Numbered from the stretch's first letter, positions 10,729-30,476 are shown. The stretch is DNA of 64,000 nucleotides from Trichodelitschia bisporula (GCA_010356995.1 ML996688.1:930001-994000); one strand, 5' to 3'. Numbers and translations are program-made. The notes: generated by a model not told the origin, from the letters alone.

Positions 10729-11145
10729 ATGTCCTCAGAAAGGCTCGACAAGCTCCAAGAAGTCCTCCGCGAAGCCCAGCTCATCCTGGCGGACGTCAAC
10801 GACGCGATGACCTCGAAAAAAGGCATAACCCGGGACAAGTTTGTCGACCTAGTAGACGAAATGCAAACTACCCTCACCGACATCTGCGAAGACTTCAATG
10901 ACTTGAAACCCCCAGCAGTAGCAATCGACAGAGGAAAATGGCGCGCCGAGATCTTCGCCTTCCTCAGCATAACCGTCGACCAGTGCCGTGCCGTCAGCAA
11001 GGCCCTGAAAAAGGGCCTCGAGGGCTTTACCTGTATGGATGGAGGGTGTGTAATTGTGGCATATGGCGAGCTTGAGAAAGCATTCTGGAAGCTGGATGAA
11101 GAAGTCGGGAAGCATGCACAAGAGCGGGCGGCAAAGGAGCTTTGA
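10729..11145 (+). CDS. Hypothetical helical protein; may be one exon of a larger gene spanning about 10400-11650
   Basis: 138-aa ORF with amphipathic, protein-like composition. No recognised domain. Confidence 0.4.
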   Translation: MSSERLDKLQEVLREAQLILADVNDAMTSKKGITRDKFVDLVDEMQTTLTDICEDFNDLKPPAVAIDRGKWRAEIFAFLSITVDQCRAVSKALKKGLEGFTCMDGGCVIVAYGELEKAFWKLDEEVGKHAQERAAKEL

Positions 11146-12459
11146 GTGGCGGGGCCCCTCCCGCTCATCTAAGCAGCCAACACCCCCCCGTGTAGCAAGT
11201 CCATCGGTGCCACCGAGCGCGAGCGCACGCGTTTCACCGTGAGACGCGCGAGCTGGCAGTGTCGCACCTGTCGAGCGCAATCTCCCGGCAACCAGGCGCG
11301 CTTGAAGAGAAGGCCATGGTGCGGTGGGTAGCTGCTTGATGATTTCTGGATGAGGAAGTGGGGAGGAGGGAGTTTGTGTGCTTTGTGCGTTTGTGCGAGG
11401 CCTTTGTGGTTCTTGTACGTGGTGGATGGGAGGGGACTGAGGAGGGTATTCCAGGTTCGCGGTTGCGCGGGACACGCGGCTAGGCGGTGCGGTATGCTTT
11501 GGGGGGTTGAGGCCGAGGAGGGAGACTGGTTCCTCTCGCCGTGTGACTGCTGGAAGGAGGTTGAGGTAGCGAGGACGACGCAGGAAAGCGTAAACAGGAA
11601 GGCAGAGCCTATTCCCGTTTCTCTGACCCATTCAAACGTCGCCTAACACTCGCTTCCACCCGCACAGCCTTGTCCCTACAACCGCCCGCCCGTGCCCGTG
11701 CCCCAGCCTTACGTCCGAACAGTAAACACACTCCTGTCGCGCAACCATGCATGACATCTCATCTTGCATTGCGTGGACGCGCGTTCTCCGATTGATAACC
11801 TGTTCCCTATGAAGCCAATCAAACCCCCCAGTCTATATCCACGGCATGAGCAAGATATCACGCCCGCGATCGTCCAGCCCAAGAAGCCTAGCCTAGCCTT
11901 GCCGCATCGCAATGAACACTCCCAGCGCCATCCCCTCGCTTCGAATCAGCGCCAGCCCAAGTCCCTCACCTCGTAGGGTTCGCACTTCCTAGTCAACCAA
12001 TGTTGGTAACATAGCTCAATCGAAAGCGGCGGACTCTGGTCTCACGATCTCGGGTTCAAACCCTCAGGTGGTCAAGATGGCTCGGAAATCTCCTTTTGAT
12101 GTTTTCTATCACTACGGAGTGTCCCACTTTTCTGGCCCAGGTATGCAGAGCCGGAACGCATCGCCATTCCCATCTCGAATCCAGCGAGATAGTTGCTCTT
12201 CCACCAGCCCTACGCAGTGAAGCAAGAAGCCAGCCCAGCGCGCGCCGCCTTCCCCACATCCACCCCCAAACATCTAGACCATGCACGTTGTTCGCCGAAC
12301 CGGAATATCAAATCCATAACCCATAACGGCATGAACCCATCCGATTTTCTGCCCATCGCCACCATCTTCGAAACGCCTTAACCAGAAAAAGCCAGAAATC
12401 CTAACAACCCAAAAAAACCACGCCAATAACGACAGTGAGCGCAAACCCGCCAAAAGAAT

Positions 12460-13824
12460 CTACCGACACCGCCCCCCAATGCAATACCCGTCATGCCTAG
12501 GACACTTATCCTCCGTCAACAGCGCCGTAATCGCGGTAGCCGGTCTACTCCCTCCACTCGGCCCGGGACTCGCGCTCCACCCCCTCACCAGCCGCGGGAG
12601 CGTATCCCGCCCATACACGCCCTGCCCAAGCTCCCTCCCCCCCTCAAACGCCGGGAACGGCTCATGATCCGCCCTCACCGCCTGCGCCGCGCCCCCGGGA
12701 TGCGGACTATCCTCCGGCGTCGGCGGGTGCACTCCGCGCTCCGGGCTCCCGTATATGCCGGCCTGGCTCGGCGGCGGCGGGTACGCGTAGGTGCGCTCGT
12801 AGGAGGGCGGCCAGAAGGACGCGTCGTGCGGGTAGGCCTGCTTGGCTTGGGCCGGGGGGGGGGGGTCATGCCGGGTGCGCTCGGCGCGGCGGGCGGGGCC
12901 CTGGCGCCATGTATCCTCTAGCTTGGCGGGGTCGACGTCGGCGCCGTATTCCGCAGCAATGGCGCCCCAGAAGCCGGTGCGGTGCTGGTCGTAGATGGCG
13001 CGGAGGCGGTCGGTGTCGACGGGGGACTTGGCGGGCGCGGAAGCCGAGGCGCCGTTAACGGGGGGGAGGTGCGGCCCTGTGTTCGGCTGGGGCGGGGCTT
13101 CCGGGGTGGGCGCGAGGGAGCCGATGGAGAGGTGGTATGGGTTTGTGGAGATGCGAAGGCCGGTGGTGGGGTGGTGGAAGGAGCGCGGGGGGGAGGCGTC
13201 GGGGGTGAGGGGGCGGGGTTTGGGGAGGAGGAGTTTGTGGGGATGGCGGTGGGGGGTGGGGCCGTGCGGGGGGTAGGGGAGGTGGGAGGGGGGGGAGGAT
13301 CCGGGGATGAAGGGCGGGAGGAGGTGATTTGCGTGGGGGGTTGAGTAGTCGTCGTGGAGCAGGGCGGGGCCGCAGGGGAGCTGGTATTGGTGCTGTGGAG
13401 AGTGGCGCGAGGAACCGGATCCCGTGGACGAGGCGGTTGAGGAGGAGGAGGAGGTCGAGGAGGTGCGCTTGCGCCGATGGCTGCCGTGCGAGAGCTGGTG
13501 ATAGTGCAGACGGCACGCCAGTTCCGTCTTGTTCAGGTGGGCTGCGATATGCTTGTAGGGCATCTTCTGCAAGCGGGTTTGGAGCAGGTAGGTTTCCTGG
13601 GTTTTCGGGATATGTCAGCGGGGGTCTGATATTGAGCGGTCATTTCCCTTCAAATTTTACCCGCTCCAGGGCAATCAATATAAACAGATTTTCGCACAGG
13701 AACATACCTCTTCCTCAGACCAGGACCTATTCCCGCCGGTGGGTGCCGTTTTACGAGCTTTCGTAGCCATGGGTCGACCAATCTCCGAAATTGACGCCAT
13801 GGTCGAGGGTAACCGGTGCTGCAT
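12460..13824 (-). CDS. Myb/SANT-like transcription factor (Myb-A); exons 13824-13708 and 13596-12460; alternative in-frame ATG at 13800
   Basis: Repeat RSWSEEE|ETYLLQTRLQKMPYKHIAAHLNKTELACRLHY followed by RRKR. Degenerate second repeat DRLRAIYDQHRTGFWGAIAAEYG. GTATG..CTGAC..CAG intron. Confidence 0.88.
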
Positions 13825-16800
13825 GACGGCGTGCGGATCGCTCGAAGGGACGTGAGGGAAAGTATGCTATGTTGGAGGTATTCAATGTGACACGGAAGGT
13901 TCTATCCGGTCGCCAAAGGACGACGTCGATGAGAGTCTAGAAAGACGGTGCGGGCGTTGTAATGGTGATTAAAAAACCTGAGGGAGTACGAAAACGGTGT
14001 CTTGTCCAGCAAACCTCCGAAAAGGGAAAGAACGTAAAGCAGCCCAACCAGTGGGAGACGAAAGAAAGTAAGAGCTGCTGGAAGAAAAGCACGCCGGGTA
14101 CCTATGGGGCGGAATAGTGATATCAGTTCGATGGATAGGAAAACATCTCGGAAGGGTGGGGGGCGAGGGGCTAATGGGTGGATATAAGATAGATCTGAGG
14201 GACACGGGAAGCCAAGATGGCAGCAGGTACGGGAGCATTGCGATTGGGGGGTTCCATGTGCCATGGGCGAGGGGTTGAGGATGGTGTGTGCGCAGCTGCC
14301 AGTGGGCGTGGCGCGATTTGAGGTTAGGAACGTTTTCAAACTGCGTTCCGCAGCCAGGAGATGCGGCACAAGTGAAGTGGACCAAACACAGCACAGTCGA
14401 GCCAGGGAACAGTGGGTTCGCAGGCCGTTGCTGGGCCGCTGGCACGACAGCCGTCGCGGGCGCGGGCTGGGCGTGGGAGCATGAATTTGGGCGGTGTTGT
14501 GAGGAGAGGCGGCGACGTTTCTCAAACTCGCGTCGGAAAACGAGATGAAGTAGGAGGTGGTTGATTCACGGAGGCGTCCGCCCGCAGCATGTCCAGCGAA
14601 AGTCGGGACGCACTGTAAGTGGCGAGACCCATGGGGAGCCTCACGCCTGTCACAGCCTGGGCCGCATGGTACCTGGACTCTAGGCGGGGTGAGCGAAGGG
14701 TAAGCGTGGGAATTCTAGTCCCAAGGACTCGGAGAAGCATCCGCAGCCGGCGTCTATCGCATCCTATGGCAATCCCGAGCGGTGTCGCAAAGGCGGGATG
14801 AGAGAGACGGGGTGCCGAAGGGCGGGGGGTGGTCAGGAATACGGTCAACAAACATCTTGATGCCGTAGACTCAGGGGGAGCCAATCGAGGAATTATCAAC
14901 AGGGAAGCTTTCCGGCAAGTTTTGGAGCCGGAGCAGATGGCGCACGCAGGGCTGTGGTGGTGCAAACTGCGAACCGTCAAGCCGCAGCCGGCGCGAAGAG
15001 AAAACAAACGTCGAGCGAATCAACACTTCTCCAACACATCGGCTGTCAGATAGAATAGATGTGATGTTGACGCGGGGAAGGGGACGGGAGCGTGTTAGGC
15101 GCCAACAAGCCTTCTCTTACAAAGGGCCGTTTGATCGCGTTTCAAGCCGTCGCATCAGCCTCTGCCGTTGGCTCTTGGCGGCGCCGAAACAGGCCATAGG
15201 GGGCATGGCCAGAGAGACGTCCACACTCTGCAGGTACATGAACATTTTTAAGCCGTTGAAGTTTGAAAAGGGGGGGGGGGGGGTGGCATGCAGCATGCAG
15301 CAGTGTGGAGAAGGAGGGAAGAAAGGGAGGGTGGCGGGGAGAGAGAGCGAAAGTTCAAAGACCCGTCTCTCGGCCCTCCCACTTTCACAAACTTCCGTAT
15401 ACTTCGGGAGAATGGGAGTACAAAGCAAAGCAAGGCCGGCAAGGCCAAAGCACGAGGTCAACCAGCGCCGGCCAGCTTAACCAGGGTGGGGGATCCTGGT
15501 ATCCTCAGCGCAAGCCATGTCGCTGCACAGAGCCCAGCAGAGTGCGGAATAATATGCGGGGCCGTTCATGCGGACAAGAGACAAAAATGTTCAGCGTGAC
15601 TATCTCAAGTGCTGTCCGATGGTCGAAGGATTTGATGAGGAATGGTCAGGATGCGAGAAAGTCCATATTGCTATACTTCTGGATGTCGATGATTGATACG
15701 CTCGGAGCGAGGCGTGAAACTAAACCTTGCGAAAAGGACGTCGCATGAATGGCAAATGGAGTCATCGTCTACCGTCGGCCATCATCTCTCCAGAGTAATT
15801 AGCATGGTAGCATAACTCTGTTCTTCCTTTTACCCAGCCATCTTCGTCTGGTTCCCATGGCTGTTGGTCACTGGTCACTTCCCTTACCCATGGCCTCATC
15901 CTCCCCCTCACCCCCGCAGCGCATCCATGTACAGCTCGTATGCATGCGGGGAGGAATGCTGCACTCGGCGCAGTACGCAACGCGCTGCAGTGCTGTAGGC
16001 ACGCGCAGCTGCTGTCGACATGGCTTAGAAGCTTTAGCAACCTCTTAGAAAATGCATCACAGCCACGGAAGGCTGTCGTCTCTTGTTCTCGAGTGGGATA
16101 TGACATCGGAAACCTGATCGATAGCTATGGTTACTGTCCCCGGCAGTGTCGGAATCAAACGGGCCGCTGAGAAACAAGACCTTGACTTTCGACTTCGCAT
16201 AGGTTTTCGATGGCGTACAAACAAGAAGTTGAGAGCATAGCAGGGGAGCTTTGCACTCACATCGAGCTAATATATCTTGACGCAGATGCTCTCTGCACAT
16301 GAGCAAGCCTCATATTGCTCAAGGTACGTACCCGACATGGTTCAGTACCCGGCTATTCGAATTCCATTTGGATGAACCATGAATCACCTTCCCCCCAGGA
16401 GTGGATGGACCGGCGACCGAGAGGCGAAGCGACTCGATCCAACTCCACGGCGATCTGTGCGGGAGGCAGCCACTCGGTAGCGGGTTCACCCGGGACATCG
16501 CATTGGTTCGGGGACCACAAGCCGGCAGTTGTGTACGTAGTGTGTACACCCTTGGATATCGCCAAAGCTCTTCCAATGATGAGCCGGGGGGTAGAAGTCG
16601 CATGTGTGCACAAGCGCCGGCTTGGCTGCACGAAGCCACCAGCCGTGGCGCTGGGGCGGGAACGGGAAAGGACCAGTTCGAGCGGGGGGGGGGGAGGTGT
16701 TGAGAAAGGCTGCGTACATGCAGTGGATTGAGCTGATAAAGGAGCAACTATCGTGAAATTTTTACCAATAGCAAAGAGGCGGAGCGGAGCGCGAATGCGT

Positions 16801-19022
16801 GGAGGAGGTTGGGGGGAGGTTGAAGAAGATGGAGGGGAAGGCAGGAGTGGGGTATTGGATGGAGGGGCCAAAATCTGGGGAAGCTACGGGTACATAGCTT
16901 ACATAAGTCTGGCACGGCCTGTTACCTCATGTCGTCATCCCTTCATCCACTACCGTACCTACAGCGCCACCGCGCCTATCGGCTGTGCGTGCGATGATTA
17001 GCACGGAGTGTCACTGAAGTACTACGTACTCTTTCTGCACACGCTCTGTTGTAGCAAGAGGCTCATGGCGAGGGAGAAAAGAAGGGAAAGGCGACGAAGA
17101 TGGGACGAGAGAGAGGAACACAGAGAGGGAGAGAGAGCGCGCTGTGTGCATGCTGTGCGTGGGTAGAACATACTCCGGTACTCCCGTGCTGCCTTTTCCA
17201 CACATCCATTTCTCACGGCTGTCGCGCCTCTTTCGCTTGTTGCCCTGTCATATGCCGCCAAAATCAGAAGAGTCAAAAAGAAAAGCAAAAAAGGAAAGAA
17301 GGGGAAAAATGACGAGTATGACAGCTTGAATACCGATCGTGAACCAGGATTGTCCTCGTTGGACGACTTTCGGCCACAGATTGAAGCTTATCCAGCCGAA
17401 ATTCCTCCGCGCGCAAGTACCTATCCGTTCACTTGGGGGCACGGAGTGACAAAGTTCGGCGCGCGTAGCAGCTACGGACCCGAGCTCCTTCATCTGCCCC
17501 GCCGTGGTCGAGCCGTCGACGTACACTCCATTTCTCTCTTCTCCTCGGACCACCTCCCTCCATACAGCTCGTCCTATTAATACCGCTTTGCGAGGAAATG
17601 CGGAGGGATTGAATTGCTACCGGGATAGCGAGTACTCATGTGGCCCGTCCAAGGTCCTTGTATTGTACTCGGTACTGCAATCCCAAATCCCACAAACCCC
17701 GCGCCTTGGGTTCGGAGGGACGCGCGATGAATGGACGGGCTTGGTGGGGCAAGATCCTCGTACCGTAGCGCAGCGACTGGTCTATTCGCTTCCAAAAAAG
17801 ACTCGAAGCGACGGATGGTGGCAGCAGTGCGCGAGAGACTTCTCTAGTGTGCAGAATTACGGCTTGCGAATCGGTGTTCGAGGAGAGATGGAGAGTACGG
17901 ATGTACTACTGCAAAGGTTTGGATGCAGCCTGGAACTGTTGAGCAGGGAAGAGCGGGGGAGGGGGGGGGCTGGACGAGCCATCGAGCCTTTTGACCCGGC
18001 GCGGAGAAAGATGCATGAAGGCGCCGTGTGGTGGGCGTCGAGCAAAGGCAGTGATTGGATTGAGGGTGGATAGAACTTAGACAAGCCTGAACGGCCACAA
18101 ATCAGACGAAAGACTGTTGCGTGGAGGGAATGGAATGGGAGAATAGGATGATAGTGATGATGGAGTGTGGAAATGGGGTGGTGGTTGTGGAGGTGGAGAC
18201 GACGATAGTAGTGCATCCATACGCGGAGTTGTCCCCATGGGCACTGTCAGCCATGGCCGATATTCCACTCCACCCCTCCTTTCCTCACCACTACCACCCC
18301 TCCTTTTCAATCCTCATCTTCATCCTCCCCCCCCAGTCCGTATCTTCCCCCCTCCATACCCAGGATAGCCTCTTGCTCTCCCCCCAATCAACGTTCACGA
18401 GCCTTACCTAGCTACCTCCACCATACAGTACTCTTTTTGATCTCTGAACCTCGTCCGATTTCCTTCCCTCTACCTCCCCTACCTAACCCCCTCCATCCTC
18501 TCCTCCCACATCCTCCCCCAGCTGCATCCCTCCACCCGACCCCACCTTTCTCGTCTCACACAGAAAACTCCATTACCCCCGGCGCCTTGTCGTTATACAC
18601 GCACTAGCCTATTAGCTCTACCGGGTCTGAACGTACCTCTACATCTCTCAGCAGTGCTACCTTCATACCATCTTCCAACTCCCCCTCCCGCACCCCCCAC
18701 CTCTCGTCTGGATAACCCCGCCCCGCCCACCTCCTCCCTTCCATCTCTCTCTCTCTTCCGCGGCCTTTGATTCGAGCCCCACGACGTGCATATTGTGATT
18801 CCAGGCAGCTTGCCGTGATTCTGCTCCCTGCTTCTGCTGCTACTCGTTACCACCGGTGCTGCTGCCGCTTGCGTCCACGGCTGTTGCTCTACGTCCGGCA
18901 CTCCCTTAGCTCTATCCTGGAGCTGAGCTCTGACCAGCAACCTTCGGTTCACTTCCTCTACGTCTCTTATACCTGTTATACACACCTGTTTGGTCCAACT
19001 TCTCACCCTGTTCGCTTGTTCT

Positions 19023-19065
19023 TCGCCTGTCTCGCCTGTCTCGCCTGTCTCGCCTGTCTCGCCTG
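19023..19065. repeat. 9-bp tandem repeat (TCGCCTGTC), about 4.5 copies
   Basis: Direct reading; lies in the leader region upstream of Myb-B. Confidence 0.85.
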
Positions 19066-19784
19066 CATCTCCACCTTACACCCCTCCTCCAACCCGCCCC
19101 CTCTCCCTCGCCATACCCTACGCTCCAACCACCATCTGCACCCCTCCACCTCTCCCCGCCCTCCTTCGCGTACTGTTTCCGTACGTACATCTACCTTTGA
19201 CGTCCGCGGGCCATGCCGCCATTGACTTGACGTCTCCCCCCACCTACCAGCCACATTGCTTCGACCGGGAACACATATCGCCGTACATTCCTACTTGAGC
19301 ATCGACATTCAAGCTAGTACAGCCTGCTTCTTAGCTCACAGCCTTTCCACCTCCGCCGATCCCGTCACTCCACATTTTCAACCCCGTATACGCAATCGAC
19401 AATGAAAGCAAGCCCTCTTTGGCGACTGCACTGACGAAGAACGACAAACACCTTAGCGAAAGACAGAACGAAGAAGTGGAAGAAGGAGAGACAAGAGTCG
19501 ATCTTACCCTTTTCAACAACTCCACAATCCCGCAACTCGTCCCTCTCTCCCTCCTTCCCTTCCCCTCCCCCGTCCCTTCCATCTCGTCCCTTTCCGCAAC
19601 GAGTAGCCGCGAACCGCCCCACCACATCCTAGGCCGTGCGCTCCTTCCCGTTTCTGCACGCCATCGACTCGACATCTCGACTGTTCCTTCCTCCACTTCT
19701 TCTCTTCTCTCGTCTCTCGTCTCTATTCTCTCTCTCTATTCTCTCTCTCTGTTCTCTCTCTCTCTTCTCCCATTCCCCCGAACC

Positions 19785-20947
19785 ATGCCGTAAGACTTCC
19801 ATCTCAACCTCTGCAACAACCTCATAGCCATACCCCGTACCGGTACATCTTTTCTCTATATACTCACACATTTGACATGGTCCCGTCACCATCTTATATC
19901 ATATATCACCTTGTCGTGCCATATTTTCTCTTGGCTCCATAAGGTTGTGGTTGCTCCCAGCACCTCTCTCAACTCTCACCATTCTTGGACGAAAGAAACA
20001 GCCGAAGCAAGGCTAACCTCACCCTCATGCCTCGGAACAGGAACACAGCCGCTGCTTCCAAGCGCACAATAAAACCTTCACCTGCAGCGACCGCTCCACC
20101 TCCTGCAAACCAACACATTAACTTCGACGTCAGCGGCATGTCGGCCGGGACTGAGGCTGTACCGCAACAGCCATCTGTCGGCTTCGTAACGGCCGTGCCA
20201 GCGCAACCAGCTCCTCCGGCCGCAGTGGCGCCCGCTGCGGTTCAGGCACCGAACCCGCGTAAACGCCGGGCGTCAGCGAATACCGGCCCGAGTCCTATAG
20301 CACCTGCACCTGCCGTTGCAGAGGCATCAACGGCGGCGGCGCAGACGGAGATGGCACCACCGGCGAAGAAAGGGAGGACGAATACACCCTGGACGCCGCA
20401 AGAGGAGCAGAGGCTAAAAGTAATGCGAGACCAGGGGAAGAGCTGGAGTGAGATCGCAAAGGTGGGTTTCTGCGGCGGTTAGACATGTCGAGAGAAGAAG
20501 GTGCGTTGCGATGCGAGAATGAAACTGACAAACCATTTGTAGACCTTTCCCTTGCGGACGGAGGGCAGCGTGAAGAAGCACTGGTACAAGGTAAGCGTTT
20601 TCGACTTGGTTCAATGTGGCGAGCTGACGTTCCTAGGATATGCATTACGCAGAGTTTGCAGAAGACGAGGTTGTTAACCCATTCTCTTGCTCTCTTCCCC
20701 GTCTCTGGGCGGACCAATCAAATATGAGCAATGTTTTTCTGACGATGATGAGAATTCTCAGAGCGCGGCACTTCTGGCTGCCATCAAGGAGTACGAGTCG
20801 AACAAATGGAAGGTGATTGGTCAGAAAGTCGGCAAGCCGGCCAAGGTGAGCCTCGGTGTTGACTATCAATGAGCAATCGCTAATGAAGGTGAAAACCTGT
20901 AGGCTTGTGAGCAATACGCAAAGGAGCACTTCGGGGGAAAGATGTGA
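19785..20947 (+). CDS. Two-repeat Myb transcription factor (Myb-B); exons 19785-19789, 20041-20461, 20543-20590, 20637-20669, 20762-20845, 20903-20947
   Basis: Spliced product contains NTPWTPQEEQRLKVMRDQGKSWSEIAK|TFPLRTEGSVKKHWYK|DMHYAEFAEDE|SAALLAAIKEYESNKWKVIGQKVGKPAK|ACEQYAKEHF. All introns are GT-AG and keep the frame. Confidence 0.9.
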
Positions 20948-23900
20948 CACTTACAGCGCATCTGATCGCTTCCCAGATCTTCGTCGTTCGGCCTTTTTAC
21001 TAGCGTCACTGTTTTACGCTTTTCGTCCCATTTTCGAGATACCAGCTTCCCAGTTTGTTGGAGCATTGCATGCCGGCCAGGATATCTTCGGAAGGCGGGC
21101 GAAGCCTTTTTCTCTTCATTTCTTGCTACTTCCCGGTGCTAAACCTTCTCTGCTCTCTATTCTCCGATGAAATCTAATGACTGACGATGGCGGGATCTGG
21201 GTCGAATCTGCGCTTTTGCTGCGGGGAAGCGGGAAAGCAACTATGCGTTAGTTTGCCTCCCACCTCTTCTTCCTTTTCATTTTGCTCTCTCGAGATCCGG
21301 GAATCGAGGAGCTGGGTTCTATTCATCTGGCATAGTAACGGTTTTGTTTTTCTTTCTCCATTCTCCTCCCGCGGGATATCGGGTTCTTTCATGGGAATGG
21401 GATAAGCGCGCGGCGGCGGCAGCGAAGGCGTAGTGCGGGAAGGAAAGAGGGTATATCACGGGCAAGCCGCTTTGTTCTCTGTTCCCCGCCATCCTCGTCC
21501 ACGTCCCAATTCTGACTCTGACTTAACAACCCTCCCTTACGCTTTCCTTACGCGTGCCCGGCCTTGCGCCCGCCGTCGGGAATTGCCACTTGAGCACAAG
21601 CGCTCGCGGCGGCACCCCGACATACCAGCTCGCCTTTGCTAGACCGATGCGGGTAGACACTTCATGCTAGCCTACGTTAATCAGCGTCCCGCGCGCCCTA
21701 CCCGCGAGACGGGTACCTACTGCAGTCGCAATACGGATACCAAGAGTAGAGGAGAGTGGGAACATGAAGGTCAATAATCCCCATCCCCACGGCATCCCCG
21801 AGACCCAATTCCCGATTCTAGCCACAACTTACCACACATATCCCCCGGCGAGCCCGCAGCCTTACGCATAACCACCGTGCGGCCCGTCGCGCATGCCGCT
21901 ACAGACACACACACAACACGGTCGGCGCGGCGCGCGCTTGCGCACAGCACGACGAGCACGACCACAGCACAAGGCGCAGATCCGGGCTGCGCCGATCGGG
22001 CAGCAAACGGGGACGCAGCAGATTTGCAGCGCGTGCTACGTCTCTAGCCTGAGAGGGCAGGACGGTAGGCGATGCTTACACACGGCGCGCTGGGCGGCCG
22101 CGAACGGGTTCAGAGCCGTTTCGGCCGCACCGCTTGCGCGCAAGATGAGGCCTGCTGTGCGATGGCGCTGCCGGTGTGGTGGTGCTACGACCGTTTGTTT
22201 TAGAAGGGAGGGGTGGTGGTACACGATTAGCGGGTGGGTGCTCGGCCTTACGAGCGACGGGTTGCGGGCTGTTGGGCGGTAGGTCGTCTGGATGTTGGAC
22301 GGATGGGGAGTAGCGCTTGTCTTTGCTGGGCGGGAAGGAGTTCGAGGGCCGTACCCGGCTAGTATGCCGTGGAGAGGTCGAGGCTGTACTCTGCGGATTG
22401 GAAGGGTGGGTATACGTACAGGGACGAGGTGTCGAGCCGGGGTCTCGAGGCATGGTGGGGTTAGATCGCGAGGAGGATCGCGCGTTGAGCCATCGACCGC
22501 CTTTTTTGCGGGTCGGCGGCGCGGGGTGAGCGGGTGACTAGGAAGCGATGTTGGAAAGTTGCGGCGGGCGGTGCGGGGTGCGCAGAGCAGATGGCGGTGG
22601 CAGGTAGAGAGTTGGATATTAGCCATGCCGTCAGACAGATTGGGGGGTGAGGAGTGAGTCCGGGTGGTGGATTTCCTGGCTTCTGCGTCACCGTGGTCAA
22701 TTTCAGCGAGCGGGGTGGTGTCTTGGTACTGGTGTTGGTCTCCGGGATTGCTTTTCGTAAAGTTGCTGGCCTGGCCTGGCCTTTCCTAGCCTTGCCGTCC
22801 GGTTTGATGGGCGCCCACGGGGAGAGGGACCTGTGCATGTACATGGACTTGCAAATTTGCATGACGGTACGGTGCGCGATACGGCGCGGTAGGGTTGATG
22901 GCTGCTGCCTGACAGTCAATATGAAGTGAGTCAGGCAAATATGCAGCCTCGTTTCTCTCTCATGGCGCAGTCCCGCACAGAGCTTTGCGGTCTTATGATG
23001 ACCGGGACTGAGAGAGGGCTTCAGCGGACGAGAGAAAGGATTCGGGGCTAAACTGCAAAGCGTGACTCGGGCCGGTTCTGTGTGCGTTTATAGTAGAGTC
23101 GTGCTAATGCAAAGAAGGAACATTGCTCGCAGTGCGCCCGCGCAGCATGCGCCCAGGCAGCAAAGCCAACTGGCCCGTGGGCCAGGAAACCTTTCCCAGC
23201 GAGAGTACGTACCCGGCAAGGCTGTGGGCGGTGGATAAGGCTCGCAGCGAGCTAGCGAGTCAGTTGGGATGGGGGGGAGAGTGAGTTGGTTGGAGGCTGT
23301 CTCCGCACGTCAAATTAATGTCCTGCAGTAGCATCCGGGTCGGACATGACTCTCCTGGACGGAAGGACGCCGGCTAAGGCGATATCACGTCAGTCGAATG
23401 CCGCATTTTGACTTTTAGCGGTTGAGCGAGCGGAAGTGGCGCTCGTGGTGGGGGTGGAGGGGAGGGGATAAATGGGTGTGGAAGACAAGGATTGCCGGCG
23501 GTGTGTGAAAGTCGAAACGGACGACGCATGACGGCATGTATGTACGTACGTACAGTGTGCTAGCGTTGTTCAAGAAAGACGTGTACGGGAGCTAAGGCGC
23601 GATAGAATCACTCGCAGGATCGGCGCATGGTGGCTGAGGGGGAAACGATGAGATGGTGTGCGATTGGGGGGGGGGGAGGGATGGGATTGCAGGATGGAGG
23701 GGGGAAGGACAGACGAGACGAAGGGTATCGGTGTGTACTCCGTATACGTGGCGCATTAGAACTAGTATGTGATGGTGTGGCAGAAAAGGTACTTGGGCGA
23801 TGTACCTCTCCCAAGCAAAGGCTGAGTAGTAGCGGTGATGATGGTTGAGCGTTGAGGTTTGAGGTTGTGGTGATGAAGTGAAGTGAAGAGAACAAAGTGG

Positions 23901-24044
23901 CCAAAGCCAAAAAGATGCCACGTTGCCTGGGGCATTCATTGACGACGATGGACCCACAATCTGCGGCAGGAAGTCCTCCGACCTCCGACTCTACTTGAGA
24001 CGCTTTGGACAGGCCTTGACGACGACACGTCTTCTCAGCTTCTC

Positions 24045-24045
<1 letters not shown>

Positions 24046-24093
<48 letters not shown>
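24046..24093. repeat. (CT)n microsatellite
   Basis: About 18 perfect TC units plus an imperfect extension. Confidence 0.95.
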
Positions 24094-26204
24094 ACTCTCC
24101 CCTCGCTTCATCGTCATTGTAACCTCTTCTCTCTATCGCCTACATCCGCCACCACCACCATCATCGTCATCGTCAAGAGATCACCGTAGTTCAAAGGAAC
24201 AAGCCAGGGATTTTCTAGCGATCTCCCGCAGCTGGACCAGACAATCCCCACCACATCATCGTTTCCGACTCGTATCTCGCATCTCGCCCTACGGTGGCTT
24301 GATCGATCTACCCCGGTCTTCCCCCATGGCTAACGTCCCTCGTCTCCAAAACCCTCAACACCTCACATATAGCCGGGGCGGTCTCCGCTATACATGTTCA
24401 GTGTCCCGCACTTGAAACACCGCCCGCTTGGACCTTTCCCTCATTCCACGGCTAAGTACAGTTACTGGTCACCGACAGTGCTCCTTAGTCCCAACAACCT
24501 TTCCCCAGTCCCCCGCGTCTGCATGCTGCATATCCCTGAAGAGAGCAAGCGAAAGCAAGCGAGCGAATCCTTCCGCGAACTCCCCCACCTCCCCTTGCAC
24601 TCGTCGCTCTCTCTTGTGCCTTTGCTGCTTTCTGCTTTCCGCTTGCATGGTTGCCCCATAAGTCTTGCAGCAAAAACACGGCTGAGTGCCTTCTCGTCAG
24701 TTTCCTCTTCCGGTCGGCAGCACTCTCCCATCGCTGTGCTCCCCGATATCCACGCGCCTGGGTTTTACGCCACGCTTCTTTTCTTCATCCTTCTCCTCGC
24801 CATCTCTTCGGCGATTCCGCAAATGCTCGCACACAGACTCTTTTTTTTTGCCCTGCTATAGTAGCACGTACAGACCCCAGACCCAAAAACCTCACCCCCC
24901 ACCCCCTGCCAAACTTTGGCCAGCGAACACCGCCTAACCCCGGTGCTGCTCCCCTCCTTTTGGGCCGGCCAAACCCCAAGCTTTCCTTTCCAGGTTTTCC
25001 GCTGTATATTGCTCGACGGCCGGGGACCATGTTGCGCATCGCATATCGTCGCAAACTCAACAGCCCGCTATGCTGTGTGCGGGCCTGCTGCTGGTCAGCG
25101 CCAGGCTGGCGCAGGAGGTTAGCCAAGCCTCTCAGCCATGCAATTCTTGTCGCAGCTTGAAGATCGTTCCGTGCACGTTCTAGAAAGCAGCAGGGCTGCC
25201 TGCACTTGCACACCTTCCGTACTTCCGCCATCTTGCCGGCCTTGCTGCAAGATACAATTCATGCGCCATTGGAACCGGCGGCTGCAGAGTTCCCGTCCCA
25301 ATCCATCGATACAGCCTCCTCCCGAACGCCCTTTGGGCTCTCCATCACCAGGCGCGCGGCGCTGGCGCGAGGCTGCCAAATGAGCTACCCCCCCTCCCCA
25401 ATATCCCCGCCCTAAGCAAACCGTTCCATCCCTCCACCTCCAAAACGAACACCCCACGAACTGTCCTTAACTATTCACTGTAAGATGCTAGCTCAACACA
25501 AGCACCTACGCACCGGCACATTCACGGCCAATGCCCCAAGATTGCAGTGCCGGTGTGTGCCATTCCGGCAATGGACCACCGCATTATGCCCGCAACAGAA
25601 TCTGTCTCTCCCGCTGCCCGACCCAGCCGAACGTCCCCCCCCCCCTTCTCCTCCCTCCCAATCCACCCACCACCCCTCCCCACCTCCCTTCAGGAACATA
25701 TGCCGTCTCGTGGGAGAATAGATGCCTCGTTGCCCACTTCACGGGCGCCTGGGCTTCTTGTGTGTCCGTGTGCCGACTGCTGCGCCTGCCTTGCACTTGC
25801 TTCGCACACCTCTGATATGGAAGGGTGTGATCCGAGCTCCTCTTAATGCTGCTCTGCGAATCGCAGAACCCATCCCCAAGGGTTATAATGCGCACGCGCA
25901 CCCGGCTCTTAGTGATGAGGATCTTTTTGCTCCACACCCCTCCCTCGCCCCCATCCCCAACCCTATATCCGTTTCCAGATAACCCTCGAACCCCGGACTT
26001 GCTAAGCTTTCCGCCCTCTGTCTATGGCGCCTCGCTTCGGGTTACTTCCGCCGAAGCCATAATTCTGAACGTGCGCGATACACATCTCTGCTCCATTCTC
26101 GGCGTCGACTTTACACCCTGGGCTCTATCTTTCTGGCTCTGGTCTCACCGGGCGACGTGCCAGAGCCAATCTAGCTCTGGCAGTCTCCATGCATATTCGC
26201 AACG

Positions 26205-27599
26205 CTGGCTCGATCATATCGAGACTTCGCCCTCGACTATGGAATACAAGAACACCACTCGGGAGAAGGCGACTCTACCGTTGGCGCGACCGCAGGGCAT
26301 CACCATCATCAGACCGCGAGCGTGGACCCGCAGCATCATCAAAATCTGCTTCAGCAGTACGGCTTAGCCGCAGCCACAGCGGTAGCTGCCGGGGGGCATC
26401 AGCATCAACATCAGCAGAATCCGTTTCTGCAGGTCTCTTCGCCGCTCCAGACGCTTCAGCAACAACATGGGGTGCAGCATCATCAGCACCTGGTACGAGT
26501 CTCAAGCGTAGTCGAATCTGCCAATCCGGCGACCACTCCTATCCACGCGCCCCAAATGCTGCGTCACCAGCAGCAGATGTCCCATCACCACCACGCCCCC
26601 GCCTATGCCACCGGTCCCTCAGTAGCCGGCTCTTCTGCCCACTCCCACCACTCCCACCTCGACTACGCCCCACCGCCATCGCGGAAGCGCTCCCGCCCCG
26701 GAGACGACCTCCAACTCGACCTCCAAGGCCTCTCGGGCCTCACAGATGTCGGCCATACGTCATCGGATTCGCTTGTCGAGCTCACCCCGCATGGCCGCCA
26801 CGCACAATCCCAGCACTCCCATCACCAGCCTCAGCACTCCCACTCCCACTCTCATTCTCATTCGCACTCCCATCAGCACCATCAGATCCCTACGCCCCTC
26901 TACCAGCAGGTCCCGGGTCCGGGACAGAATATCCCACCTCCGCTCCCTACGCCGCCACAGCACCATCACCACCGCCTGCCGAACCAACCGCCCCCGAACA
27001 AAATGCGCCGCCTGGGAGGGGGCTATGGCGATTCCTCTCCCACGGCGCCGCATCACCACCACGGCCCGCCGAGCGTGGTAGGGCAAGAAGGGATGCCCGC
27101 GCCCGCACCGCGACCACGGGGCCCAAAGCTCAAATTTACGCCGGAGGACGACCAGCTACTGGTGGACTTGAAGGAGAAGAAAAACCTGACGTGGAAGCAA
27201 ATTGCCGACTTCTTCCCGGGACGAAGCTCGGGGACCCTCCAAGTGCGATACTGTACCAAGCTTAAGGCGAAGACAACGGTTTGGACGGACGAAATGGTAC
27301 GTTTTTGTGTTCTGCGCGTGTTTGGTGTGAGGCGCCCGCAAGGCTAACCACGTGAATAGGTCCTCAAGCTGCGCAATGCAATGCGAGAGTATGAAAATGA
27401 CAGGTGGCGCATCATATCAACGAAAGTGGGGAGCGGGTTCTCGCCGACAGCGTGTAAGGAGAAGGCCAGCGAGATTGCGGCGGTGGATGCGGGGGAGACA
27501 GTGGACGATCCCGCGACCGCGGACGAGAGCAGTTTCGATCAGGCGCAAACCGAGCAGCCGGGTTCGGCATCGACGGATCATGGTCCGGGTTTTCAATGA
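26205..27599 (+). CDS. Two-repeat Myb transcription factor with His/Gln-rich N-terminus (Myb-C); start codon uncertain; intron 27297-27359
   Basis: PRPRGPKLKFTPEDDQLLVDLKEKKNLTWKQIADFFPGRSSGTLQVRYCTKLKAKTTVWTDEM|VLKLRNAMREYENDRWRIISTKVG. The frame is open from 26175 but the first in-frame ATG is at 26556. Confidence 0.88.
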
Positions 27600-28361
27600 C
27601 AATTAGCCCCTCTTTTCAGCCTGCAGGCTGTACGATAGAGGAGGGGCGTATATTCGTGTGGCTGGGCCACATGGGGAGGTATTGATACGAACTGTGAGGT
27701 CTATCCGAGTTTCTTAGGTGAGGGGTGCGGGTGGTGTTTTCGATACGATCTTTTACCCACTTTATGGTATTGTTTAGCTGTAGATCTTTGCATCATTTTT
27801 CTTCCACGTTGGCAGAGGGGAAGGGCATCACTCGGCGTCGGTAGATGTAGGCAAAGAGGGGGGATGTACGGCGTTTACACACGGACGATACGGCGGAACA
27901 CGATACACTCGCTTTCATGGTCATGGAATCACGGCTCATTTGCGCATACTACAGAAACGGAGAGGAACCATTGTCTTCAGGTGGTGGTAGGGACCTAGGC
28001 GCTCCAGGCACGAAAGAACAAAAGAGAAGACACGGCGCGGTCGGTGGTAACTCGTTTTACAGGATCTTAGATGATTTTCATCGTTTGCTGGCAGATTTTC
28101 TCCTGCAGAGATACCCTTTTACTCTTTGTTTCGTCTCGGTCGCTATATGGGGATAGGGGAGTCGAGGGGCCATCAGGATCGAGACCACACACTCGCTGCT
28201 GCTGGTTTGGGTACATCCGCACTTCTTTGCTTGTTGTCTATTTGGAGGGAACAGGACGTATAGGGAGATAGGGCTAGCAACGCGTTTCTTTCATCGTTCA
28301 CCTGATTTCAAATGCACCCCCGCATCAGCTCTCCCCCGCGTCTCGCTCCTCGCCAAGTTGC

Positions 28362-29204
28362 TCAGAACCTAACCCTCACCCCCGTGCTCATATAGACATC
28401 AATGCAGAAAAAAGCCCGCGAATATAGAGCGTTATGCGCGAGCGTTCCGCACGGCACGTGCGCCCGCCACCCCCGCATGGCCATGTTGTTGCATCTATAC
28501 GGGCGTCTTTGTAAGCCCCTGCGCCGCCCCAGTGCTGCCGCGGCGCCGATCCTTAGGTATAGGGAGCGGGGCGTGGTGATAAAGCCCTGCGGCGGGGTGG
28601 CTCTGCGGGGGGTGGGGAAGGAGGGGGGCGCGGGCGATGGACGGCGCGAGCACTGGAAAGGCGAGGCGAGGCGAGAAAGGGCGGGCTCTATATCTCCAAC
28701 GGGGGCCTGCGGATAAGTCTGCACAGAGGAGGGGCCGGTTGGCGCCAGGGCTTTGCTGTTAAGTCCGCGCACGGCGCCGGGGGCAACGGGCGGCGGGCCT
28801 GCGGCTGACTCGTGAGGCTGGGCTGGCTCGGCGGTGTGGCGGGCCTGGTCCTGGGCTATAGCGGCGGTGGGGAGACGGCGGGCGGCGTTGCGTCCGGGTG
28901 GGGCGGCTTGGGGGGCGGGGATGGGGTGGGTTGAGTTCGGGAGGAGGCCGGGCTGGGGAGGGGTGGGCCGAGTGCAGAGCTTGGTGAGGAGAAGATAAGT
29001 GGGCGCTGGGTGGTGGCGAGGCGTTGGGCTGGGAGGGGGGAAGGGGTTGAGGCTAGACGGGTGGAAGGCGGGGGGTATATGTTCGTTGATATAGATCGGT
29101 GGTGGCGTGTGAGTGGCTGCTGGGCGGCGGGCTGGACTGTAAGTGTTTAGTTGGCTAGCCTCAGACGCTTGAGAGGAATTGGAGGGATTGGTTGAGATGA
29201 TCAC
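28362..29204 (-). CDS. Possible Pro-rich hypothetical protein (doubtful)
   Basis: 280-codon open frame with a non-ATG start, low complexity and no domain. Sense strand is C-rich, as at gene 5' ends in this genome. Confidence 0.2.
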   Translation of the reverse strand: MIISTNPSNSSQASEASQLNTYSPARRPAATHTPPPIYINEHIPPAFHPSSLNPFPPPSPTPRHHPAPTYLLLTKLCTRPTPPQPGLLPNSTHPIPAPQAAPPGRNAARRLPTAAIAQDQARHTAEPAQPHESAAGPPPVAPGAVRGLNSKALAPTGPSSVQTYPQAPVGDIEPALSRLASPFQCSRRPSPAPPSFPTPRRATPPQGFITTPRSLYLRIGAAAALGRRRGLQRRPYRCNNMAMRGWRAHVPCGTLAHNALYSRAFFCIDVYMSTGVRVRF

Positions 29205-30476
29205 AGAGCTGGTGGACTTGCGGGTGGGGGGCTGGTTGGTGAGCTTCTTGTTCTGTGGTGGGAGGTGGGGGTTTGGATGTAGACGAAGGGTGATCGCGTC
29301 ATTGGGCGCCTGCGGAAGCTAACGCGGCTTTGACGGCGAGCAAGATTGGACACCTGCGATGCTCTACTGGCTCAGACTCATATTTGGGTGAGCCAAGTTT
29401 TGTCGAGGCTTGCAGAGATTCGGCGTGCCTGGAAAGCCAGTATGGGATGGGATATCCGGCTTTGATCAAGGCGGAAATGGAAAGACCTTACGAGCTATCA
29501 AGAGAATAAATTGACTCCGGTACATGGAGCAAGTTTCGGATATACTTCCGGAAGTAGACGGTATCGGGAAGGCAGTCATGGTCGGCTCATGTGGCCGCAT
29601 CCCGCGCTTTCCGGCCCGACTCCAATACTGGAAACCGGGGACACAGTCGGCACTTGGTGTGCTTTATGACCTTGCCGCTTTCATACTCTCTACACTCCCC
29701 AAAAAAGAGGGAAGGTCAGGAAGGTCAGGAAGGTTATTTGATATCTCTGGCAAAGTTTTTCGAGATGCCCGGTTTCCGCTTTCAGTTTTGTTGGCCATAA
29801 ACTTGATGCCTATGCGTCATGGCCTGTTCCGTGTGCTAGTGCCAAAATCCAAACGGAGTCTATTGATATTATACTGTTTATCAGCTTCTGGAAGACAACT
29901 GGACAAGGATTCGAGTTGGAGCTTCCGCTTCTCATTCCTGTTTGGATGGTGGAAGGTCATCTGCGGTAGCATGAGGCGGCGGGCTTTTGATACGGTCTGA
30001 GATACTTTTTGGTTGGATGCAATCTTACCCCATCAAAAGATTTGTTCAATATTTTGCTTGTGAACTCAAAGCAGGCGAAGAAAAAATAGTTGCAGCATCA
30101 CAAATGCCGCGTCGGAGATGGTTGAGGTGGCTGTGGTTGAGATAAGGCTGGAGGTCATCACCAGAAAAAGTCGTGGCCGTACCTGCCTATGGCTCAAGGG
30201 CCATCCTAAAATATTGTAACGGCCCTGGGGGCCGTTTTTGCAAGTGGAAGCGGTAGTAACTTTCTTCAGTGGCACTTGGTCGGTGCGCCTTGCATAGAAC
30301 AAGCCACTGGAGAAGCGGCTGCAACTTTTTAGCGTGGCTCGTGGGTCTTGGTGTCGGTAGCGGCAAATGGTTAACCCGCTCCAGGCCGCACACCAGATTT
30401 CGCAAAGAGATTCCCCCACCAATTCATCTCCGCCTCGACAAGATATCCACGACACCTCACACACAAATACGCCAAA

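What the first reader, a model, noticed from the sequence alone, without database searches (positions are those of the whole stretch)
12460..27599. Triad of related Myb/SANT transcription factors in a 15-kb, otherwise gene-free domain
Seen: three Myb genes (12460-13824 minus, 19785-20947 plus, about 26205-27599 plus) with no credible gene between them. Spacers are about 6.0 and 5.3 kb, whereas most other spacers in the window are about 0.4-2 kb. Myb-B and Myb-C share an atypical second repeat (L..A(I/M).EYE...W..I..KVG...AC), and Myb-A has a degenerate version. Inference: an ancient tandem-derived cluster of developmental regulators held together by shared cis-regulatory DNA. Individual fungal Myb factors are known to control sporulation and fruiting bodies, but I am not aware of the triad being described as a unit.
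Basis: partly seen in the sequence, partly recalled or inferred. Interest (0 to 1): 0.78.

Follow-up and report, generated by a model that had tools for sequence, protein, structure and literature searches.

The report
Conserved trio of fungal Myb genes
Three real Myb-type regulator genes lie side by side in 18 kb of a Dothideomycete genome; the same neighbourhood recurs in several related fungi, and the long gaps between the genes are transcribed leaders and non-coding RNAs, as is usual around fungal master regulators.

Summary
The window is from Trichodelitschia bisporula (100% match of gene A). All three Myb genes are real. RNA contigs confirm 6 of 6 introns, and all three pass Pfam thresholds. 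B starts at 20027, not 19785. C has no in-frame ATG before 26556.

Only B and C are demonstrable relatives (hhalign 97.9%, E 6e-13, both repeats). A is a separate Myb-like family (1.4% and 6.8%).

The A-B-C order has consecutive locus tags in Verruconis. In Kalmusia, Plenodomus and Bogoriella, A and C are two tags apart. In non-redundant metagenome contigs around B, 8 of 12 informative loci hold A divergently, 4 of 10 hold C, and 2 of 8 hold both. Other genes replace A or C elsewhere.

The spacers hold no conserved or catalogued ORF, but they are transcribed and contain two spliced minus-strand RNAs. Their sense-strand polypyrimidine tracts fit the published class of regulators with large upstream regions.

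I found no evidence for shared long-range regulation. The Fusarium genes MYT1, MYT2 and MYT3 are probably not orthologues, so the trio's function is untested.

Side finding: C's conserved N-terminal region lacks an in-frame AUG.

The parts
12460..13824 (-). Gene A: 417-aa Myb-like protein. Exons 13824-13708 and 13596-12460.
   Evidence: My model has the same length as NCBI EJ06DRAFT_568417, and its second exon matches that protein at 100%. The intron is skipped in RNA contigs. PF13921 scores 28.7 bits against a cut-off of 22.9.
13825..15084 (-). Transcribed 5' leader of A, at least 1.26 kb long, with 12 upstream ATGs.
   Evidence: An RNA contig joins 13289-13595 to 13707-15084.
14027..14090 (-). 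Conserved non-coding block in A's leader, about 230 nt upstream of the ATG. Its 13-nt core starts at 14055.
   Evidence: blastn gives 78-85% identity over 62-72 nt to 6 loci whose A proteins, where tested, are only about 40-50% identical. The core, with at most 2 mismatches, sits upstream of A in L002, L005, L008, L012, L020, L021, L044 and L052.
15701..18297 (-). Upstream minus-strand transcribed region with a 237-nt GT..AG intron (16024-16260). It is either a distal leader of A or a separate non-coding RNA.
   Evidence: Joint 16023 to 16261 and contigs 15701-16834 and 16973-18297. Splice-site sequence. No long ORF from here is in the protein collection.
19036..23299 (+). Transcribed unit holding gene B. 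It includes a roughly 1-kb leader and 2.35 kb beyond the stop codon.
   Evidence: A 3988-nt RNA contig covers this span; its start at 19036 is computed from the record positions.
20027..20947 (+). Gene B coding sequence: 214 aa in 5 exons (20027-20461, 20543-20590, 20637-20669, 20762-20845, 20903-20947). A two-repeat Myb.
   Evidence: All four introns are skipped in both runs. PF00249 scores 62.3 bits in two stretches. Repeat 1 matches c-Myb R3 at E 1.1e-13. The NCBI model has only 106 aa.
21671..21719 (-). A 49-nt minus-strand intron, marking a spliced RNA that runs convergent or antisense to B's 3' region.
   Evidence: CT..AC joint in run X2. GT..AG ends with a branch-site-like sequence.
24041..24099 (.). 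(TC)n microsatellite at the point where strand polarity of the B-C spacer switches. A second (TC)n lies at 19696-19769, upstream of B.
   Evidence: Tandem Repeats Finder. Strand-specific tract counts.
25658..28368 (+). Transcribed unit of gene C.
   Evidence: A 2648-nt RNA contig covers 25658-27295 and 27359-28368.
26175..27599 (+). Gene C reading frame: exon 26175-27296 and exon 27360-27599. The first in-frame ATG is at 26556. A two-repeat Myb.
   Evidence: PF13921 scores 48.2 bits. Homologues cover 100% of the 374-aa exon translation. The intron is confirmed.
26157..26210 (+). Conserved start region of C. It holds a stem 26160-26166 / 26174-26180, an in-frame TAG at 26172-26174, an out-of-frame ATG at 26189-26191, and an invariant CTG at 26205-26207 in an A..CTG G context.
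   Evidence: Codon alignment of 5 independent lineages. The ATG sits at offset 17 in 5 of 5 lineages. The predicted hairpin has z -3.5.

Best explanation
Three genuine, Pezizomycotina-restricted Myb-type DNA-binding regulators sit in an old linkage group.

B and C are ancient paralogues with the same two-repeat domain and very probably arose by local duplication. A belongs to a different Myb-like family. It has one N-terminal repeat and a second helical block about 160 residues later, and it is paired head-to-head with B.

The long 'empty' spacers are each gene's own regulatory flank rather than shared territory. A has a transcribed leader of at least 1.3 kb and possibly 4.5 kb. B has a leader of about 1 kb. 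C has a leader of at least 0.5 kb. There are also spliced non-coding RNAs on the minus strand. All flanks are marked by polypyrimidine tracts on the sense strand of the gene they precede. This is the architecture published for high-level fungal regulators with large conserved upstream regions.

The linkage dates at least to the common ancestor of several Dothideomycete orders and probably earlier. It has survived where nothing broke it and has decayed elsewhere.

Shown here: the gene structures, Myb membership, the B-C relationship, recurrent adjacency, transcription of the spacers, and the tract polarity. Inferred: the duplication origin, the regulator role, which transcript belongs to which gene, and passive rather than obligatory retention.
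For: Gene models and introns. Pfam membership of all three.

B versus C: BLASTP 32% identity over 91 residues, E 5e-10; hhalign 97.9%, E 6e-13 over 95 columns spanning both repeats. B's third intron and C's only intron are both phase 0 and fall at the boundary between the repeats.

Adjacency in named genomes: PV09_00456/00457/00458; N0V90_004826 and 004828; NX059_010483 and 010481; M1820_009826 and 009824; TID19651 and TID19650; KAF2144036 and KAF2144037.

Metagenome loci: A lies divergent to B in 8 of 12 non-redundant loci with at least 7 kb upstream. C is present in 4 of 10 with at least 7 kb downstream. A-B spacers are 2.5-6.2 kb in 9 loci.

None of the other genes in the 64-kb window occurs in any of the 80 loci, so the block is conserved while its surroundings are not.

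Spacers: no conserved ORF, none of the 10 spacer ORFs looked up is in the protein collection, no Rfam family or tRNA, and RNA contigs with two minus-strand introns.

Tract polarity: 54 of 119 CT-rich windows and 46 of 124 AG-rich windows lie in kb bins 13-19 and 23-25 (10 of 64 bins, about 16% of the window), each on the sense strand upstream of A, B or C. This matches Noble and Andrianopoulos 2013 (abstract and sections 13 and 17 read).
Against: A's kinship to B and C is not supported by profiles (probabilities 1.4% and 6.8%), and A matches no solved Myb structure by sequence.

B's first repeat matches vertebrate c-Myb about as strongly (E 1.1e-13) as B matches C. Without a full fungal Myb set I could not show that B and C are each other's closest relatives.

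The full trio occurs in only 2 of 8 loci with 7 kb on both sides.

NCBI numbering implies one annotated protein between A and B that I could not see.

The published TACRGAGTA motif is not enriched. There is 1 exact copy, and 25 of 100 shuffles do as well.

The RNA runs are unstranded contigs from one sample, so transcript ends, strands and levels are not established.

No member of any of the three families has a reported phenotype in what I read.
Confidence: 0.6

Rival explanations
1. The trio is a fungal genomic regulatory block: shared long-range elements or the spacer RNAs co-ordinate all three genes, and selection on that shared landscape keeps them together.
For: Adjacency persists across several Dothideomycete orders while all other window genes are rearranged. 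The head-to-head A-B pair is kept in 8 of 12 informative loci, always with a large spacer of 2.5-6.2 kb. Conserved non-coding blocks exist. Spliced non-coding RNAs run through both spacers.
Against: The conserved blocks lie within about 0.65 kb of A and in C's leader. None was found deep in the spacers between distant loci. Other genes sit 2-3 kb from B in many lineages: GH16 in 7 loci, a permease-like gene in 3, DUF498 (or a homologue of it) in 3. C is absent within 9.5 kb in 6 of 10 loci and A in 4 of 12. In one lineage C is inverted 7.3 kb away with other genes between. The tract polarity divides each spacer into gene-specific halves.
Confidence: 0.2
2. The spacers are not gene-free. They hold lineage-specific or small protein-coding genes that ORF-based and homology-based checks miss.
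For: NCBI accessions skip one number between A (KAF2404439) and B (KAF2404441). The spacers are transcribed and spliced. A 104-aa ORF spans the 16024-16260 splice junction. In relatives, a 642-aa ORF lies in the A-B spacer of L038 and a 360-aa ORF in that of L020.
Against: The 10 spacer ORFs looked up are not in a 15-billion-protein collection that does contain A and B of this genome. None is conserved in 80 related loci. Their composition is the Pro/Arg/Ser/Ala-rich kind typical of non-coding frames in GC-rich DNA. The two ORFs in relatives match no Pfam family. Verruconis has no locus tag between the three genes.
Confidence: 0.12
3. The adjacency is a coincidence of unrelated Myb-domain genes and has no evolutionary meaning.
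For: A is not demonstrably related to B or C. Fungal genomes carry about 20 Myb-like genes.
Against: The same neighbours recur in at least six named genomes and many metagenome contigs. B and C share both repeats. Rough chance expectation is about 1e-4 (inference).
Confidence: 0.03

Closest known systems
Fungal regulators with large, conserved upstream intergenic regions (Noble and Andrianopoulos 2013, Genome Biol Evol 5:1336, PMC3730340; abstract and sections 13 and 17 read)
   Same: These are sequence-specific DNA-binding genes flanked by multi-kb upstream regions whose size is kept in orthologues (2.5-6.2 kb). They have gene-proximal polypyrimidine tracts on the sense strand and long leaders with many upstream ATGs.
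   Different: That paper treats single genes, not a conserved trio. Its TACRGAGTA motif is not enriched here. It reports less stable gene order upstream of such genes, whereas the A-B pair here is unusually stable.
Animal genomic regulatory blocks such as the Iroquois (Irx) triplets in gene deserts (recalled, not read here)
   Same: Three transcription-factor genes, two of them paralogues, lie in a gene-poor domain with conserved linkage.
   Different: No distal conserved non-coding elements were found, the scale is 18 kb rather than megabases, and the linkage is lost in several lineages.
Canonical R2R3 Myb DNA-binding domain (c-Myb, PDB 1h88/1mse)
   Same: B's first repeat aligns to c-Myb R3 at E 1.1e-13. 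C matches c-Myb at E 9.8e-5.
   Different: The second repeat of B and C lacks the usual tryptophan pattern and ends in a conserved Ala-Cys. The domain sits at the C-terminus behind long disordered regions. A matches no solved chain at E up to 1.
Fusarium graminearum MYT1, MYT2 and MYT3 (PMC3184970, PMC3359310, PMC3983115; passages and primer tables read)
   Same: They are Pezizomycotina-conserved Myb regulators. MYT1 also has a very large upstream region; the REMI insertion lies 1.6 kb upstream of MYT1 and 7.6 kb upstream of the neighbouring gene.
   Different: They are probably not orthologues. MYT3 has 2304 aa. The N-termini of MYT1 and MYT2, and the C-terminus of MYT1, read from cloning primers, match none of the 368 family proteins I held. 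This is an indirect test.
Non-AUG initiation of N-terminally extended fungal transcription factors (Neurospora cpc-1, Podospora IDI-4; Ivanov et al. 2017, PMC5487733, passages read)
   Same: C has a conserved in-frame N-terminal region without an AUG and an invariant CUG in a strong context.
   Different: This is not shown experimentally. It is a Myb protein rather than a bZIP. It has a conserved upstream in-frame stop, a conserved stem and a conserved out-of-frame AUG 14 nt before the CUG, none of which came up in the passages I read.

Membership tests
Myb/SANT DNA-binding domain (Pfam PF00249, PF13921) | The whole-protein score reaches Pfam's gathering cut-off | tested here: met
   A: PF13921 28.7 bits against 22.9. 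B: PF00249 62.3 against 24.4. C: PF13921 48.2 (window exon) and 53.8 (Verruconis orthologue) against 22.9.
Myb/SANT DNA-binding domain (Pfam PF00249, PF13921) | Two adjacent repeats (R2R3-like) in B and C | tested here: met
   PF00249 matches two stretches in P0250, P0361 and P0027. The B-C alignment spans both repeats.
Myb/SANT DNA-binding domain (Pfam PF00249, PF13921) | A's second conserved block (residues about 231-270) is a Myb-like three-helix repeat | tested here: inconclusive
   The block is invariant at 15 positions across 28 sequences. It is modelled with pLDDT 92-95 as helices 234-256, 262-270 and 274-279. hhalign to C's repeat 2 gives only E 0.037 and probability 1.4%. The best fold match is a designed engrailed homeodomain variant with Z 4.3, rmsd 4.9 and 49 residues aligned.
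Tandem-duplicated paralogue cluster | Members are demonstrably homologous beyond the generic domain | tested here: inconclusive
   B-C: probability 97.9%, E 6e-13. A-C 1.4% and A-B 6.8%. No complete fungal Myb set was available to test whether B and C are sister families.
Tandem-duplicated paralogue cluster | Shared intron position | tested here: inconclusive
   B's intron 3 (after ...AEDE) and C's intron (after ...TDEM) are both phase 0. They coincide if the alignment gap is placed at the intron; otherwise they are one codon apart.
Large-upstream-region regulator class (Noble and Andrianopoulos 2013) | Large upstream region maintained in orthologues | tested here: met
   A-B spacers are 2.5-6.2 kb in 9 non-redundant loci. 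B-C spacers are 1.8-7.3 kb in 5.
Large-upstream-region regulator class (Noble and Andrianopoulos 2013) | Gene-proximal polypyrimidine tracts on the sense strand | tested here: met
   34 CT-rich windows in kb 18-19 (upstream of B), 20 in kb 24-25 (upstream of C), and 36 AG-rich windows in kb 13-17 (upstream of minus-strand A), from totals of 119 and 124.
Large-upstream-region regulator class (Noble and Andrianopoulos 2013) | Enrichment of the TACRGAGTA motif | tested here: not met
   One exact copy (23736-23744); 25 of 100 shuffles have at least one. With one mismatch there are 15 copies against 11.2 expected.
Genomic regulatory block (shared long-range regulation) | Conserved non-coding elements distributed through the spacers | tested here: not met
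   Between distant loci only the block near A and C's leader are conserved. No close relatives were available for finer footprinting.
Genomic regulatory block (shared long-range regulation) | Linkage resists insertion and break-up | tested here: not met
   The trio is intact in 2 of 8 loci with 7 kb on both sides. GH16, permease-like and DUF498 genes lie next to B in other lineages.
Fusarium MYT1 / MYT2 / MYT3 | Orthology to A, B or C | tested here: not met
   MYT3 has 2304 aa. The terminal peptides of MYT1 and the N-terminal peptide of MYT2, translated from published primers, are absent from 368 family members. This is indirect; the full sequences were not compared.

The most novel reading that the evidence does not exclude
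The trio is a compact fungal counterpart of an animal regulatory block. Under this reading, a head-to-head A-B control region and spacer-spanning spliced non-coding RNAs (one running towards A, one antisense to B) couple the expression of three Myb regulators. C would be further switched between a long and a short isoform by non-AUG initiation, governed by a conserved leader hairpin, an upstream in-frame stop and an out-of-frame decoy AUG.
Probability: 0.15. Interest if true: 0.7.

Novelty: new member of a known kind. Interest (0 to 1): 0.4.

Why it matters
All three families are conserved across filamentous ascomycetes, yet none has a reported function in what I read. Their architecture (multi-kb transcribed flanks, many upstream ATGs, conserved leader elements) is the signature that in Aspergillus marks the main developmental and metabolic regulators. 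This makes them good candidates for functional study.

The recurrent A-B-C neighbourhood, inside genomes whose gene order is otherwise scrambled, is a clean test case. It can show whether fungi keep regulator genes together for regulatory reasons or only by inertia.

The missing AUG in C also explains why public gene models of this family disagree at the N-terminus, and why B and C are truncated or missing in this genome's annotation.

Tried and rejected
1. Whole-genome search: no genome is held for this window.

2. My recalled lead that Fusarium MYT1 (FGSG_00318) and MYT3 (FGSG_00324) are members of this trio is rejected. MYT3 is a 2304-aa protein. MYT1 and MYT2 terminal peptides from primer tables match no family member. 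The Magnaporthe MYB list shows no adjacent loci.

3. Earlier notes of this scan: nothing at this place or with this sequence. The word search returned only other Myb-like clusters of a different family.

4. RNA evidence: no listed holder is on record as RNA. The two runs are labelled as a guess. I treated them as RNA because their contigs skip canonical introns. Depths are per contig and cannot rank genes.

5. TACRGAGTA motif: not enriched.

6. Rfam at E up to 0.1, tRNA scan: nothing in 11000-29500.

7. Exact look-up of 10 spacer ORFs to identify KAF2404440: none found. Junction-spanning models could not be looked up.

8. Fold search with the model of A: best Z 4.3, inconclusive.

9. Protein Atlas: A's and B's nearest clusters are Ascomycota Myb-like clusters, probably largely their own families. 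B's best structural neighbour is a 372-aa Ascomycota Myb cluster (TM 0.51), which may be family C but could not be checked.

10. Hairpin covariation in C's leader: the one lineage with changes (L020) weakens the stem rather than compensating, so the structure rests on energy alone.

11. Pfam on ORFs inside relatives' spacers: no family.

12. The representative-library search and the complex prediction were not used. The first returns no names and would be filled by orthologues. The second was not used because I make no binding claim.

Full report
**Identity and gene models**

The 378-aa translation of 12460-13596 (minus strand) matches NCBI protein EJ06DRAFT_568417 of Trichodelitschia bisporula at 100%. 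The window is therefore from this Dothideomycete. Joining 13824-13708 to 13596-12460 gives a 417-aa protein, the same length as the NCBI protein.

Two public runs, labelled only as a guess at RNA, behave as RNA because their contigs skip canonical introns. They confirm all 6 introns I had modelled:
- A: 13597-13707
- B: 20462-20542, 20591-20636, 20670-20761, 20846-20902
- C: 27297-27359

B's coding sequence is 20027-20947 (214 aa). The NCBI model of B has only 106 aa. No 100% match to C appeared among proteins of 205-655 aa.

**Are they Myb genes, and are they related?**

All three pass Pfam gathering scores:

| Gene | Family | Score (bits) | Cut-off |
|---|---|---|---|
| A | PF13921 | 28.7 | 22.9 |
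| B | PF00249 | 62.3 (two stretches) | 24.4 |
| C | PF13921 | 48.2-53.8 | 22.9 |

BLASTP gives 32% identity over 91 residues, E 5e-10. Family profiles give hhalign probability 97.9%, E 6e-13 over 95 columns. B's intron 3 and C's only intron are both phase 0 and lie at the repeat boundary. They coincide if the alignment gap is put there.

A is different. Its profile scores 1.4% against C and 6.8% against B, and it matches no solved chain at E up to 1. By contrast, B's repeat 1 matches c-Myb R3 at E 1.1e-13, and C matches c-Myb at E 9.8e-5.

A does have a second, strongly conserved helical block about 160 residues after the first repeat. It is modelled at pLDDT 92-95. The fold search was inconclusive: best Z 4.3, to a designed homeodomain variant.

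The 'triad of related Mybs' is therefore a B-C pair plus a third Myb-like gene of another family. I could not test B and C against a complete fungal Myb set.

**Conserved linkage in named genomes**

Locus tags and accession numbers show the following:

| Species | Evidence |
|---|---|
| Verruconis gallopava | A, B, C = PV09_00456, 00457, 00458 |
| Kalmusia | A and C = N0V90_004826 and 004828 |
| Plenodomus lindquistii | NX059_010483 and 010481 |
| Bogoriella | M1820_009826 and 009824 |
| Venturia nashicola | A and B = TID19651 and TID19650 |
| Aplosporella | B and C = KAF2144036 and KAF2144037 |

In several further species two of the three proteins are listed with the same longest-contig length, which suggests a shared scaffold.

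**Conserved linkage in metagenome contigs**

A scan of metagenome contigs with a B alignment kept 80 loci out of 268 confirmed relatives. After setting aside 4 near-duplicates:
- A lies on the opposite strand upstream of B in 8 of 12 loci with at least 7 kb upstream, plus one shorter locus.
- C lies downstream in 4 of 10 loci with at least 7 kb downstream, plus three shorter loci. It is inverted and 7.3 kb away in one.
- Of 8 loci with 7 kb on both sides, 2 hold both A and C, 3 hold A only, 2 hold C only, and 1 holds neither.

The two complete loci look Glonium-like (B 94% identical to Glonium stellatum) and Eurotiomycete-like. Where A or C is missing, other genes take the place:
- GH16 then GH76 downstream of B in 7 loci
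- a permease-like gene in 3 loci
- DUF498 (or a homologue of it) upstream in 3 loci

None of the other genes in the 64-kb window was found in any of the 80 loci. The block is therefore conserved while its surroundings are not.

In Aspergillus nidulans, AN4527 (188 aa, two C-terminal repeats) and AN4524 lie three loci apart. A nucleoside-transporter-type gene, AN4526, lies between them. This resembles the Eurotiomycete-like contig. The orthology is inferred, not tested.

**The spacers**

The spacers are 6.2 kb and about 5.2 kb. I found no evidence of conserved coding sequence:
- No Pfam family passed its cut-off in the long ORFs.
- Only a weak tblastx hit pair to related loci, in A's leader.
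- No coding-type conservation among the spacers of 14 loci. Hits between the closest loci fall in all frames and on both strands.
- No exact match in the protein collection for the 10 spacer ORFs looked up.
- No Rfam family or tRNA.

The spacers are not silent, however. RNA contigs cover 29 of 30 bins in run X1:
- A's contig runs upstream to 15084.
- Further contigs cover 15701-16834 and 16973-18297. The former carries a 237-nt minus-strand intron.
- B's contig spans about 19036-23299.
- Run X2 shows a 49-nt minus-strand intron at 21671-21719 with good splice and branch signals.
- Contigs also cover 24107-25374 and 25658-28368.

NCBI numbering leaves one unseen protein between A and B, perhaps a model on one of these RNAs.

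Base composition divides the spacers by gene. Tracts that are polypyrimidine on the minus strand fill kb 13-17, upstream of A. Plus-strand tracts fill kb 18-19 (upstream of B) and kb 24-25 (upstream of C). A minus-sense patch lies at kb 23. (TC)n repeats sit at 19.7 and 24.05 kb.

This is the pattern Noble and Andrianopoulos (2013) describe for regulators with large conserved upstream regions. Their TACRGAGTA motif is not enriched here.

**Conserved non-coding elements**

A block at 14027-14090, about 230 nt upstream of A's ATG, is 78-85% identical over 62-72 nt to six loci whose A proteins, where tested, are only about 40-50% identical. Its 13-nt core recurs upstream of A in eight loci. A second 37-nt block lies about 500 nt upstream. 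No conserved block was found deep in either spacer between distant loci. No close relatives were available for finer footprinting.

**C's start region**

The frame that carries the Myb domain is conserved as protein from 26175 onwards. Homologues cover 100% of the exon translation. The same motif appears in Sordariomycete proteins. Third-codon positions vary synonymously.

The frame opens directly after an in-frame TAG and has no ATG for 127 codons. In 5 independent lineages:
- the TAG is conserved
- a 7-bp stem flanks the TAG
- an out-of-frame ATG sits exactly 17 nt after the TAG
- a CTG follows in an A..CTG G context

Two lineages have an in-frame ATG at the start of the conserved region instead: L020, 4 codons before the CTG, and L068. 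The hairpin is predicted at -31.2 kcal/mol for the 81-nt stretch, z -3.5, but it has no compensatory changes.

The simplest reading is non-AUG initiation of a long isoform, as known for Neurospora cpc-1 and proposed for Podospora IDI-4. An unrecognised upstream exon is the alternative. The RNA contig is continuous here.

**Function**

I found no experimental function for any of the three families. Fusarium MYT1, MYT2 and MYT3 are probably other Myb proteins. A null mutant of AN4527 was made in Aspergillus nidulans, and the passages I read describe a phenotype only for another of the five mutants. Searches for the trio as a described unit found nothing. Supplements of the Aspergillus papers were not read.

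**Verdict**

The old linkage is real but decays in some lineages. The duplication origin holds for B and C only. The large spacers are best read as each gene's own transcribed regulatory flank. Shared regulation remains an open minority possibility.

Noticed in passing
window 26157-26210 (and L005, L012, L020, L021, L026, L044): C's conserved N-terminal region has no in-frame ATG until 26556. In 5 independent lineages a conserved in-frame TAG, a 7-bp stem, an out-of-frame ATG at a fixed offset of 17 nt and an invariant CTG in a strong context mark its start. Two lineages carry an in-frame ATG at the start of the conserved region instead. This suggests non-AUG initiation or an unseen upstream exon.
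   Followed up: partly
window 14027-14090 and 14305-14341, minus strand: Two short non-coding blocks in A's 5' leader are 78-86% identical to loci whose A proteins, where tested, are only about 40-50% identical. The 13-nt core of the first block is a near-palindrome.
   Followed up: partly
window 15701-18297 and 21671-21719, minus strand: Spliced minus-strand RNAs without conserved ORFs run through both spacers. One is upstream of and co-oriented with A. The other is convergent or antisense to B's 3' region.
   Followed up: partly
window 20948-23299: The RNA contig that holds B's spliced coding exons continues 2.35 kb past the stop codon. This is either a very long 3' UTR or an assembly merged with the antisense RNA.
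   Followed up: no
B's leader has 4 upstream ATGs, A's has 12 and C's has 10.
   Followed up: yes
window 20027-20947 and 26175-27599: The public annotation of this genome seems poor here. B is modelled as 106 aa instead of 214, and no 100% match to C was found among proteins of 205-655 aa.
   Followed up: partly
L007, L016, L025, L028, L032, L045, L063 (2.3-3 kb downstream of B): In one unnamed lineage, B's downstream neighbour is a conserved GH16 gene. In four of these loci (L016, L032, L045, L063) a GH76 gene follows, so a different microsynteny replaces C there.
   Followed up: partly
window 26835: One RNA contig of run X1 begins matching here after 255 letters that lie nowhere in 11000-29500. 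The break is inside the His/Gln-rich repeat region of C, so it may be a misassembly or a related locus.
   Followed up: no
L038 4815-6743 (minus) and L020 8210-9292 (plus): Long ORFs (642 and 360 aa) without Pfam matches lie inside the A-B spacers of two relatives, so the spacer is not ORF-free in every lineage.
   Followed up: partly
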